Assembly: GCA_000165345.1 (NCBI GenBank)
Contig: CM000435.1
Coordinates: forward strand, 864,001-928,000
Reading direction: 5' to 3'
DNA length: 64,000 nucleotides
This document shows, one piece after another, positions 36,001-39,000 of the stretch; the stretch's first letter is position 1, and each line of letters begins with the position of its first letter. A program made the position numbers.

Positions 36001-39000
36001 TCTCTGTGCATTTTTTTAGAACATGGAGCTATAGATGTATTCGAGGGTGTATTTTCCCATCTAAAGTCAAGAATAGCCTCTGGAAACAATAGTCCTCTTG
36101 TACTAACTGAATGTATTAAGCCAAATAGAATACAGCTTCATGGCTCACCAATTACTTTTGTTTGCTCGCCATTTTCAACCGATTGTAAAGTTAGGCATAA
36201 ATACACGCTTTCTGTTGGAATAGACAATAGCATACGTTTGTTTTGTTTCGAACAAATGAAAATTATATCCGGTGGGAACTTGAATAAGCGTGTAAATGGC
36301 TCTCGAGTAATTGCATGTTATTTAGAAGATGAATTTGGAAGATTGGGTTTCTTTGGTACATCATCAGGGCAACTATTAGTCTTAGATATGGCTAGCCAGC
36401 CGCCATACCTAATAACAAACTTCAATTCCCAAGCTGATTATCAATACCCTATTACATCAATTGTAGCAAGTAAGAAGTTCCTAGTTGTTGCCTATTCGAA
36501 TATTATTAAGGTTTTCGGAATGGAAATGAATCCTAAGCAAGCAACCTGTACAATCAATGATAATCAACATATACGAAGTATTGATACAAACTTTTTTTCA
36601 GATATGGATATTGGAACAATTAGCTCACTTTATATTTATGAAGATGAATATCTATTTGTTGGTGGTACAGATACTTTTTCATTATTCAAACTTAATATCA
36701 ATCAGGAACTTACACCCCCTGTTTTACTTTTTTCATATGCAATTCACACAGGTAAAATAAACTACATTTCAGTTGTTCCAGACAATGTATTAAATATTGG
36801 CCAATTCTCCAGACAATTTCTGAAACTGCTTACAGCCAGTGAAGATGGGAGAATTATTTTTTGGAAAATTTTCAATTTGCCTATGAATCAAACCGTCAAT
36901 GTTAGTACATACGAAGAAACAATAAATGAGGAAAACTTTGAAGAAAGTAAAGTAATAAATGAGCAAATTCATTCATTAGAAAATATGAGGTCTATAGAAT
37001 TAAGCGATAATAGTGATGATGACCTTAGTTCGGCATTTAGATAGTTGCATTCACTAGGAATAATAGATTTATAGAGACAAATTATCTTTCTTTTCTCTTA
37101 TATTCCCTAGATAATGGAATGATATCCACCAAATGCATTTTCAGAGCTATATTCTACATATAGGAACCCGTCATCAGAAACATATTGCTCGTATACTTCT
37201 TGCATTAACGACCCAGCCTTGGGTATCGTATTATTCACAAATAAATATATAGTCTTCTCGTATGGTACAGGTATTTTAATTCCACTGTTTTGATTATTAG
37301 AAGATTGAGTAATATGCTTATGAATTATATACTTGAATTCTCCAACCAACATATTCATTGGGACTAAAAATCTAAATTTTGTTATTTCGCTGTGCAGAGT
37401 ATGAAAACTTACTTTTTCTTTTCAATTTCAGGAAGGTCACTTCTTGATGATCTTTCACAAATTACCGGGATTCTGTTTGGATACTTTGCCCTTATGCTTA
37501 GAGCTTCTGCTGCTCTTTTATCTTGATAAAATAATTAATGCAAAGATAAAGTACTCGTTTCAAAACTTACCAAATTGAACCTTTTCCTTCAGTGAACTCA
37601 TAATTCACACGCTTAAATCCGTATCGGTAAATCTTAATCTTTTAAATTCTATGGAAATACATCCAACCTTTATTTCTTCAGAATATTTTCAATTCCCCCA
37701 TAAATTGTTCGATATGGAAGGCGGCAACTTGTGGCGCCACTATTCAACATGTATTAATTTATAGATAAAATTAATAGACGCAATATTAAAGAGTTATTTC
37801 AACAAAAAAATTTACATAAAAACAGTTTGACTGCAACTACTTAAGTTCTTTTGAAATATCTAGGTAACAACCTTTCGCTCTTTTGTAGTATTCCCCACAT
37901 TTGAAAAATGAATGCAATAGTAAAAATGCATTTTAGACCATACGTAAATTGTGATGGGTCTTATGTCGACACACCTAATAGTAGCCACCAATATTATTAA
38001 GCTTTTCCACTAATATCTTAATTTAAATTTTAATACAGGAGAACTGAAACAAATTGCAATTTAGTAATGCGTTATGTATCCATTAAGTCCTAGAAATTGC
38101 ATAGGTACTAACCAAAACTCAAGAGCTGCATCCAGTGAAATTATATCCGGTTCATCATTTGCCTATCCTAATTCATCAAATGAATCCTTTATTAATGTAA
38201 GGGATGAAAATAACTCAAATCTATTAGAATTTGACTCTTTTAAAGTGCAACTGAATATTGACAAATCAAATTCTAAAGTTAGTGGTGAAGAGCTCAATGA
38301 AAATAGTACCAAATTAAAACTAATTACCACTCATCATTCTCATAACTTAGACTCTAATATTAAGGACGAAAGCTCCAATAATATACGAGTTAAAAATAAT
38401 ATATATTCAGATATTTCCATCGAAAATAATTTTTCAAATTTTGAACTAAAAACAGAACCTTATATTAACTTGAGTAAGGAACAACTTTACAAAATAATTT
38501 ACCAAAAGCATGATGAACTGCAGCAAATGAAACTTCAACTTAATGAGGCAAAAATAAAAGAATTAAATTTAGGAAAAAACTATGAGCTCAGCATTGCAAA
38601 GCAAAATGAACTGAAAACTATAAATTCAAATTTGGAAAACTTAGTGAATCAATTAAGAACTAAGAAAAGCCACCAAGTTAATTCAATTGCAAGTCGGCTA
38701 AAGCTTGGAAATTATAACGATAAAATCTTTGAAAAATTAGATAATTTGCTTGATTCTATTACAAAATTGAAAGAATATGCTTCATTATTTACTATTGAAG
38801 ACCAAGTTGACATAAATGAAATCAAAAAACTTAAATCTTCCATAGATAATCTTACTCCCAGTAAAGAGATAAATACTGAAATAGAGTACCTCAAAGAAGA
38901 AAGGCAACAACTTATCCAATTACTAACTGCTCTATCATCAAATAATAACTTCTATATAGATAATAATTTTTGTGATAACGAATTAAGAAATGAAAATGTT

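What the first reader, a model, noticed from the sequence alone, without database searches (positions are those of the whole stretch)
37721..37740. Identical GC-rich 15-mer TGGCGCCACAAGTTG in the promoters of Atg8 and of the RING-CH/FHA E3 gene (second copy 63646-63660)
In ~30%-GC intergenic DNA, a 15-mer with nine G/C, built around the palindrome GGCGCC, occurs twice. Each copy lies 100-140 nt upstream of a minus-strand start codon (37601 and 63519). GGCGCC/E2F-like boxes are a known over-represented upstream motif class in Cryptosporidium-type genomes. The extended shared flank (CACAAGTTG) suggests a specific composite site rather than a generic GC box.
Basis: seen in the sequence. Interest (0 to 1): 0.5.

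Follow-up and report, generated by a model that had tools for sequence, protein, structure and literature searches.

The report
Known E2F box; coincidental 15-mer match
The two identical 15-base words are real, but eight of the bases are the well-known Cryptosporidium E2F promoter box, and the other seven are not conserved in sister species, so the longer match is most likely coincidence.

Summary
The window is Cryptosporidium parvum chromosome 7; ORF 38074-39186 is cgd7_4000. TGGCGCCACAAGTTG occurs exactly twice: 37725-37739 on the minus strand and 63647-63661 on the plus strand. Both copies are in non-coding DNA upstream of genes (Atg8/cgd7_4000 and the RINGv-FHA gene).

The first eight bases, TGGCGCCA, are letter for letter the published C. 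parvum E2F motif. That motif is the most abundant upstream motif in the genome and the dominant one in sporozoite open chromatin.

I aligned both promoters across six Cryptosporidium species.
- The core TGGCGCC is conserved: 7/7 invariant columns in one promoter and 5/7 in the other.
- The CAACTTG flank is not: 0/7 and 2/7, and those two belong to a neighbouring invariant GGCGGCA box.
- Of the five species sampled at both loci, only C. parvum has the same 15-mer at both.
- Other E2F boxes nearby have unrelated flanks.
- The heptamer is not enriched in non-coding DNA.

A 7-nt flank match between two palindromic sites has a chance of about 1.2e-3 per pair. About one such coincidence is expected per genome scanned in 64-kb windows.

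Verdict: two ordinary, conserved E2F boxes. The composite-site idea is not supported.

The parts
37732..37739 (.). E2F box TGGCGCCA (palindromic), copy 1. It lies in the 472-nt divergent intergenic region between Atg8 (minus, ATG 37601) and cgd7_4000 (plus, ATG 38074).
   Evidence: The core is conserved in 6 species, with 5/7 invariant columns. It matches the published E2F motif.
37725..37731 (+). CAACTTG flank of copy 1. The first two bases belong to the invariant GGCGGCA box; the other five are a variable spacer.
   Evidence: Alignment A3 shows ACTTG / ACTTG / GCTTT / ACAAG / TATAT / CACAC. One search counts 2/7 invariant columns.
37711..37726 (+). Near-invariant block GATATGGAAGGCGGCA (two single-base differences, both in C. 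felis), containing a second, E2F-like GGCGG box. Five variable bases separate it from the TGGCGCCA box.
   Evidence: Alignment A3; GGCGG at 37720.
63647..63654 (.). E2F box TGGCGCCA, copy 2. It lies 187 nt upstream of the RINGv-FHA gene ATG (63459, minus strand). The intergenic region also holds the 3' end of the upstream same-strand WD40/BING4 gene.
   Evidence: TGGCGCC is invariant in 6 species, 7/7 columns.
63655..63661 (+). CAAGTTG flank of copy 2 (CAACTTG in the gene's sense). Not conserved.
   Evidence: Alignment A4: C. hominis CAAGTTG in gene sense, a 5-column gap in C. canis in A4 (4 in A2), TTGGTTGT in C. felis. One search counts 0/7 invariant columns.
63634..63642 (-). AAGTGGGGC, invariant in six species. 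It matches the published G-box pattern G.GGGG and begins 5 nt downstream (gene sense) of the E2F box.
   Evidence: Alignment A4. G-box motif as listed.
63619..63628 (-). TGTGTGGAAT, invariant in six species. The same 10-mer lies next to the GGCGCC box of the next promoter (59902-59911).
59884..59889 (.). Third GGCGCC box (TGGCGCCT), 198 nt upstream of the ATG of the 691-aa minus-strand gene (57611-59686). Invariant in six species, with an unrelated flank.
   Evidence: alignment A5.
4432..4437 (.). Fourth GGCGCC box (ATGGCGCCT), 132 nt upstream of the ATG at 4564 (plus-strand ORF). Its flank is unrelated.
37107..37601 (-). Atg8 gene (spliced).
   Evidence: gene call with PF02991 at L001 2034-2528, mapped to window coordinates.
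38074..39186 (+). cgd7_4000, 370 aa (named hypothetical, coiled-coil or rhoptry protein in different species). It is the divergent neighbour of Atg8.
61279..63459 (-). RINGv (RING-CH) plus FHA protein gene, 726 aa.

Best explanation
Each copy is an ordinary Cryptosporidium E2F box, the palindrome TGGCGCCA. It sits in a compact promoter within about 125-335 bp of the start codons it could serve. By analogy with E2F/DP in other eukaryotes, an E2F-DP winged-helix heterodimer would contact the symmetric GCGC core and help set up the open, often bidirectional, promoter. C. parvum encodes two E2F and two DP proteins. Each box is one element in a dense cluster of conserved promoter words. In the Atg8/cgd7_4000 region the partner is a second GGCGG box. 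In the RINGv-FHA promoter the partners are a G-box and TGTGTGGAAT.

The further seven bases shared by the two copies (CAAGTTG) are not part of a functional unit. They lie in sequence that drifts freely between species, and their identity in C. parvum is a coincidence.

Shown here: the sequence match, the non-coding location, conservation of the core, and non-conservation of the flank. Inferred: that E2F/DP actually binds these two sites.
For: - Organism: C. parvum chr 7.
- Motif identity: TGGCGCCA equals the published E2F motif. That motif is over-represented upstream of genes in 163 of 200 expression clusters, about 2,379 genes (PMC3734150). It is listed as [A/T][C/G]GCGC[G/C][A/T] and assigned to E2F/DP (PMC12246861). 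[quoted passage not shown]
- Location: 4/4 GGCGCC and 3/3 GGCGGG in the window fall in the ~19% non-coding fraction.
- Footprinting in six species: TGGCGCC is invariant at 7/7 columns (RING) and 5/7 (Atg8), against 31-32% invariant columns overall. The flank scores 0/7 and 2/7.
- Distribution of the exact 15-mer: at the Atg8 locus it is found only in C. parvum and C. meleagridis. At the RING locus it is found only in C. parvum, chipmunk genotype I and C. ubiquitum.
- Other sites: two further TGGCGCCA sites on the same chromosome stretch, and the conserved box at 59884, have unrelated flanks.
- Heptamer: CAAGTTG/CAACTTG occurs 13 times in the window, and only the two copies in question are non-coding.
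- Match boundaries: similarity stops dead at both ends of the 15-mer.
- Chance estimate: 1.2e-3 per pair, about 1 within-window coincidence per genome scan.
Against: - For this particular, fairly G+C-rich heptamer the coincidence is less likely than the average figure. With only two exact TGGCGCCA sites in the window, P is about 1e-3, which is not negligible.
- In the RING promoter the flank is kept in C. parvum, chipmunk genotype I and C. ubiquitum. The single C. hominis change (C to G at the centre) preserves the CAA-N-TTG symmetry.
- I could not count the 15-mer genome-wide, so enrichment elsewhere in the 9.1-Mb genome is not excluded.
- No binding or chromatin data for these two sites were available to me.
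Confidence: 0.85

Rival explanations
1. Composite element. An E2F box abutted by a CAASTTG site for a second factor forms a specific 15-bp module that co-regulates Atg8 and the RINGv-FHA E3 ligase.
For: - Exact 15-mer identity, with P about 1e-3 per pair by chance.
- CAA-N-TTG is itself symmetric, and the C. hominis substitution keeps that symmetry.
- The flank is retained in three of the four closest species at the RING locus.
- Both genes belong to ubiquitin-like or ubiquitin pathways.
Against: - The flank is the least conserved part of both promoter cores: 0/7 and 2/7 invariant columns, against 7/7 and 5/7 for the box.
- In the Atg8 promoter it behaves as a spacer of fixed length and free sequence.
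- In the RING promoter it is deleted in C. canis and unrelated in C. felis, while elements on the other side of the box stay invariant.
- Only C. parvum carries the 15-mer at both loci.
- No other E2F box in about 200 kb of Cryptosporidium sequence has this flank.
- The heptamer is not enriched in non-coding DNA.
- The two copies have opposite orientation relative to their genes, and different distances.
- No paper found with the heptamer and Cryptosporidium reports it as a regulatory motif (judged from the listed titles and abstracts).
Confidence: 0.08
2. The two copies are remnants of a duplicated promoter segment or a dispersed repeat.
For: An exact 15-mer that is the compositionally rarest dispersed repeat in the window.
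Against: - Identity ends abruptly on both sides, with no decaying similarity.
- Each copy sits in its own long-conserved syntenic promoter in six species, and the 15-mer arises by lineage-specific substitutions.
- The neighbouring genes are unrelated.
Confidence: 0.02
3. The word acts at the RNA level, as part of a conserved structured non-coding RNA or 5'-UTR element rather than as a DNA binding site.
For: - Copy 2 lies inside a highly conserved stretch of about 110 nt, next to a small hairpin TGGCA-GAAA-TGCCA.
- C. parvum has many lncRNAs (PMC7840661, seen only as a title and abstract).
Against: - No Rfam family matches at gathering threshold or at E<=1.
- Folding energy is indistinguishable from shuffles on both strands (z = -0.63 and -0.47).
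- The hairpin is lost in C. canis and C. felis without compensatory changes.
- The palindromic core matches a known DNA motif.
Confidence: 0.03

Closest known systems
Cryptosporidium parvum E2F upstream motif (5'-TGGCGCCA-3'; [A/T][C/G]GCGC[G/C][A/T]). Noted by Bankier 2003 and, per the papers read here, Mullapudi 2007. Defined by Oberstaller et al. 2013 (PMC3734150). Dominant in ATAC-seq peaks in Xiao et al. 2025 (bioRxiv 10.1101/2025.01.17.633476).
   Same: Exact sequence match of the 8-bp core. Non-coding, promoter-proximal location, in one case a bidirectional promoter. Co-occurrence with other listed motif families (G-box, CACAC-like).
   Different: Nothing about the core differs. The extra 7 bases shared here are not part of the published motif, and my alignments show they are not constrained.
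Canonical eukaryotic E2F/DP site TTTSGCGCSAAA (structure: Zheng et al. 1999, as cited in PMC3734150).
   Same: A symmetric GCGC-centred core with T on the 5' side and A on the 3' side. Copy 2 reads TTTGGCGCCA on the window's plus strand.
   Different: Cryptosporidium lacks pRb-family partners according to the cited literature, so regulation of E2F activity may differ. No binding has been demonstrated for any C. parvum E2F site.
Composite cis-regulatory modules such as E2F plus a CHR or CDE element in animal cell-cycle promoters (from my own general knowledge, not tested here).
   Same: The idea that an E2F-type box can work with a fixed-spacing neighbour. In the Atg8 promoter, GGCGGCA-N5-TGGCGCC keeps its spacing across six species.
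   Different: The conserved partners here are the second GC box, the G-box and TGTGTGGAAT.

Membership tests
Cryptosporidium E2F upstream motif / E2F-DP binding site | Sequence matches [A/T][C/G]GCGC[G/C][A/T] (consensus TGGCGCCA). | tested here: met
   Both copies contain exact TGGCGCCA. Motif definition.
Cryptosporidium E2F upstream motif / E2F-DP binding site | Lies in non-coding DNA upstream of a gene, within a few hundred bp of the start codon. | tested here: met
   Copy 1 is 123 nt from the Atg8 ATG and 334 nt from the cgd7_4000 ATG. Copy 2 is 187 nt from the RINGv-FHA ATG. All 4 GGCGCC in the window are non-coding.
Cryptosporidium E2F upstream motif / E2F-DP binding site | Under purifying selection: the core is kept in orthologous promoters of other species. 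| tested here: met
   A3 and A4 across six species: TGGCGCC has 5/7 and 7/7 invariant columns, against about 31% overall. The third box at 59884 is also invariant.
Cryptosporidium E2F upstream motif / E2F-DP binding site | Physically bound by an E2F/DP heterodimer, or lying in open chromatin. | not testable with these tools
   The literature gives only genome-wide statements (ATAC-seq motif enrichment). The review says no E2F component has been validated experimentally.
   Flank invariant columns are 0/7 (RING) and 2/7 (Atg8). The exact 15-mer is at both loci only in C. parvum.
   No other [AT][CG]GCGC[CG][AT] site in 11 loci from 7 species, or in the window, has it. The sample is limited to about 74 kb of C. 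parvum.
   13 occurrences in the window, 2 of them non-coding (both are the copies in question). About 2.5 would be expected from the 19% non-coding fraction.
Only an extrapolation could be made.
Dispersed repeat / duplicated segment | Similarity extends beyond the seed word. | tested here: not met
   There are mismatches immediately on both sides of the 15-mer. No match at up to 3 mismatches occurs elsewhere.
Structured non-coding RNA | Matches a known RNA family or shows unusually stable, conserved folding. | tested here: not met
   Rfam found nothing at either locus apart from a sub-threshold chance-level snoRNA hit elsewhere in the spacer. Folding z-scores are -0.63 and -0.47.

The most novel reading that the evidence does not exclude
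CAASTTG directly abutting the E2F box is a young site specific to the C. parvum clade. It would bind a partner factor (for example an ApiAP2 or Myb protein) and couple a small regulon that includes Atg8 and the RINGv-FHA ubiquitin ligase to E2F control. It would have arisen independently at the two promoters.
Probability: 0.05. Interest if true: 0.35.

Novelty: already known. Interest (0 to 1): 0.1.

Why it matters
The result matters little beyond confirmation. It shows that two more C. parvum promoters carry the well-known E2F box and that the box is under purifying selection across the genus. That agrees with the published view that E2F/DP dominates Cryptosporidium promoter architecture.

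The practical lesson concerns scanning. When a motif occurs hundreds of times per genome, an exact 15-mer shared by two instances is expected by chance about once per genome scan. It should be checked by cross-species footprinting before being called a composite site.

The footprints themselves may be useful starting material for promoter dissection in Cryptosporidium. They are a fixed-spacing GGCGGCA-N5-TGGCGCC pair, an E2F + G-box + TGTGTGGAAT cluster, and a 31-nt invariant block.

Tried and rejected
- Structured RNA. Rfam over the whole window at gathering threshold found only tRNA-Gly. Permissive scans of both intergenic regions found nothing relevant. RNA folding of the conserved block around copy 2 on both strands was no better than shuffles. 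Rejected.
- Hairpin. The small hairpin TGGCA-GAAA-TGCCA next to copy 2 is not kept in C. canis or C. felis and shows no compensatory change. Rejected.
- Upstream ORF. A possible uORF starts in the invariant block: ATGTCTGTGAAGACGAGG..., 27 codons in C. parvum (my reading). Its length is not conserved, with stops at codon 20 in chipmunk genotype I and codon 10 in C. canis. It is therefore not a conserved peptide. I did not pursue it.
- Literature. A search for the heptamer CAACTTG/CAAGTTG together with Cryptosporidium returned nothing that looked regulatory, judging from the listed titles and abstracts.
- Extended promoter similarity. Apart from short A+T-rich words at chance level, only the 15-mer is shared between the two promoters.
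- Genome-wide k-mer count. This was not possible. Collection scans cover viral, metagenome and prokaryote DNA only. A metagenome scan for a 15-mer would return mostly random hits, so I did not run it.

Full report
**Observation.** TGGCGCCACAAGTTG occurs exactly twice in the window, at 37725-37739 on the minus strand and 63647-63661 on the plus strand. There are no further matches even at three mismatches. Among all dispersed repeated 15-mers in the window, this one is the least probable by base composition. The others of similar rarity all lie in a Thr-rich coding repeat at 46.5-47.3 kb. Identity ends abruptly on both sides of the 15-mer.

**Where we are.** ORF 38074-39186 is 100% identical to C. 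parvum cgd7_4000 and lies on 1.3-Mb chromosome records of C. parvum assemblies. The window is therefore C. parvum chromosome 7.

- The minus-strand gene ending at ATG 37601 carries Pfam ATG8.
- The 726-aa minus-strand gene 61279-63459 carries RINGv and FHA.
The first Met and the public gene call are at 63459.
- Copy 1 lies 123 nt upstream of the Atg8 ATG and 334 nt upstream of the divergent cgd7_4000 ATG.
- Copy 2 lies 187 nt upstream of the RINGv-FHA ATG. That spacer is bounded on the far side by the 3' end of a same-strand WD40/BING4 gene.
- Because the copies are on opposite strands, they point in opposite directions relative to the two minus-strand genes.

**What the core is.** The first eight bases, TGGCGCCA, are the published C. 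parvum E2F motif.

- Oberstaller et al. 2013 give exactly 5'-TGGCGCCA-3'. They find E2F-like motifs over-represented upstream of genes in 163 of 200 expression clusters, about 2,379 genes, the most abundant putative site in the genome (PMC3734150).
- A 2025 review lists the motif as [A/T][C/G]GCGC[G/C][A/T] and assigns it to the two E2F and two DP proteins. It stresses that none of this has been validated experimentally (PMC12246861).
- A 2025 preprint finds E2F to be the single most prominent motif in sporozoite ATAC-seq regulatory peaks. More than half of those peaks are bidirectional promoters.
- In the window, all four GGCGCC and all three GGCGGG fall in the roughly 19% of sequence outside long ORFs. 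Their distances to the nearest ATG are 123-198 nt.

The core therefore meets every sequence-level criterion of the known motif.

**Is the 7-nt extension functional?** I fetched the orthologous loci from other Cryptosporidium species. For the Atg8 side these were C. meleagridis, chipmunk genotype I, C. ubiquitum, C. canis and C. felis. For the RING side they were C. hominis, chipmunk genotype I, C. ubiquitum, C. canis and C. felis. I then aligned the intergenic regions (A3; A4).

In the Atg8/cgd7_4000 spacer the six species read:

| Species | Sequence |
|---|---|
| C. parvum | GGCGGCA-ACTTG-TGGCGCCA |
| C. meleagridis | GGCGGCA-ACTTG-TGGCGCCA |
| chipmunk genotype I | GGCGGCA-GCTTT-TGGCGCTT |
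| C. ubiquitum | GGCGGCA-ACAAG-TGGCGCCA |
| C. canis | GGCGGCA-TATAT-TGGCGCCA |
| C. felis | GGCGGCA-CACAC-TGCCGCCC |

In the RING promoter, TGGCGCC is invariant in all six species, and so is AAGTGGGGC, which starts 5 nt beyond the box. The flank on the other side is not conserved:

- CAACTTG in C. parvum, chipmunk genotype I and C. ubiquitum;
- CAAGTTG in C. hominis;
- deleted in C. canis (GCCAG|TGGCGCC);
- TTGGTTGT in C. felis.

Counting invariant columns gives 0/7 (RING) and 2/7 (Atg8) for the flank, and those two are the CA of GGCGGCA. The core TGGCGCC scores 7/7 and 5/7. The background is 31-32% invariant columns. The exact 15-mer is present at the Atg8 locus only in C. parvum and C. meleagridis. 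It is present at the RING locus only in C. parvum, chipmunk genotype I and C. ubiquitum. Among the five species sampled at both loci, only C. parvum has two identical copies.

**Other E2F boxes.**

- Two further exact TGGCGCCA sites lie just beyond the window on the same chromosome (L007:2840 and 7776). Their flanks are ACGTGGACA|...|GCTGTGAG and GGCACGT|...|CAGCGCTA.
- The conserved box at 59884 reads CCAAAT|TGGCGCCT|AATACATG in all species.
- None of the E2F-type sites in the 11 loci from seven species carries CAAGTTG, except orthologues of the two copies.
- The heptamer itself occurs 13 times in the window. Eleven are coding, and the two non-coding ones are the copies in question, so there is no non-coding enrichment.

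**Chance.** The core is palindromic, so two sites can be compared in four flank combinations. I sampled pairs of positions from the window's own non-coding DNA. The probability that two sites share a 7-nt flank abutting the core is 1.2e-3. For the four exact sites seen in about 74 kb it is 7e-3. I then extrapolated that density to 9.1 Mb, which is my own extrapolation and not a measured count. This gives about 490 sites, about 150 coincident pairs genome-wide, and about one coincident pair falling within a single 64-kb window per genome scanned.

**Other readings.**

- Duplication or a repeat family is excluded. The match boundaries are abrupt, and each copy arises inside its own anciently syntenic promoter.
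- An RNA-level role is unlikely. There is no Rfam match and no excess folding stability on either strand. The adjacent small hairpin is lost without compensation in C. canis and C. felis.

**Mechanism.** The best-supported picture has two parts.

- Shown here: these are two conserved instances of the palindromic E2F box within densely conserved compact promoters. In one case the box sits in a divergent intergenic region that could serve both Atg8 and cgd7_4000.
- Inferred from the literature on E2F/DP and from the published ATAC-seq enrichment, not from data on these sites: an E2F-DP heterodimer binds the GCGC core and contributes to an open promoter.

The real local partners, judged by invariance across six species, are the second GGCGG box at fixed spacing (Atg8 side) and the G-box plus TGTGTGGAAT (RING side). 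CAAGTTG is not among them.

**Limits.**

- I could not count the 15-mer across the whole genome.
- I had no site-specific chromatin, TSS or binding data.
- The closest species are so similar overall (77-98% identity in these spacers) that only C. canis and C. felis give sharp footprints.
- The retention of the flank in three close species at the RING locus, and the symmetry-preserving change in C. hominis, keep a small residual probability (about 5-8%) for a young composite site.

**Verdict.** The composite-site part is not supported. Interest is low.

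Noticed in passing
window 63681-63711 (minus strand); L007 about 9749-9779: The 31-nt block CTGCGACATATATGTCTGTGAAGACGAGGAA is invariant in all six Cryptosporidium species, although the adjacent RINGv-FHA protein is only 56% identical in C. felis. It contains the 12-nt palindrome GACATATATGTC and sits about 20 nt from E2F copy 2. It is unique in the window and has no Rfam match or folding signal. An ATG inside it opens a uORF whose length is not conserved. Its function is unexplained.
   Followed up: partly
window 59902-59911 and 63619-63628 (both minus strand): TGTGTGGAAT occurs exactly twice in the window. 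Each copy is 12-18 nt from a GGCGCC box in a different promoter. It is invariant across six species in both (A4, A5). It resembles the CACAC-type AP2_2 motif family.
   Followed up: partly
window 37711-37739: GGCGGCA-N5-TGGCGCC: two E2F-like GC boxes at a spacing that is fixed across six species, while the 5-nt spacer sequence varies freely. This suggests a paired site in the Atg8/cgd7_4000 bidirectional promoter.
   Followed up: partly
window 37748-37758 and 59873-59883: The 11-mer AACATGTATTA lies next to the GGCGCC boxes of two different promoters. TACATGT is invariant across six species at 59.9 kb, and CATGTATTAATTTATAGAT in the four closest species at 37.7 kb. My rough by-hand estimate of the chance, given proximity to the boxes, is about 0.05.
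   Followed up: no
window about 37933-37975: A second highly conserved block lies in the Atg8/cgd7_4000 spacer: TAGACCATACGTAA...ATGGGTCTT.TGTCGACACACC, near-invariant in six species. It contains an imperfect inverted repeat (AGACCAT / ATGGGTCT) and a CACAC word.
   Followed up: no
window 42581-48409 (minus-strand ORF), repeats at about 46570-47310: A very large ORF (1,942 aa in the mechanical list) contains an ACC/ACA-rich tandem coding repeat, which would encode Thr-rich, mucin-like tracts. GC skew is strongly elevated at 46-48 kb. The ORF length differs markedly between species (1,033 to 1,909 aa in the gene calls).
   Followed up: no
window 48870-48940 (+): tRNA-Gly (CCC), the only Rfam/ARAGORN hit in the window. 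GGCGGG/CCCGCC boxes lie just upstream at 48778, with another GGCGG/CCGCC at 48822.
   Followed up: no
L007 2840-2847 and 7776-7783 (C. parvum chr7, just beyond window end): Two more exact TGGCGCCA boxes: one about 76 nt upstream of a WD40 gene (in a divergent spacer shared with PP2C), the other about 168 nt upstream of the BING4/WD40 gene. The box is present in at least five of the six species sampled at each of these two promoters (positions compared by eye, not aligned). That makes 4 exact boxes in about 74 kb.
   Followed up: partly
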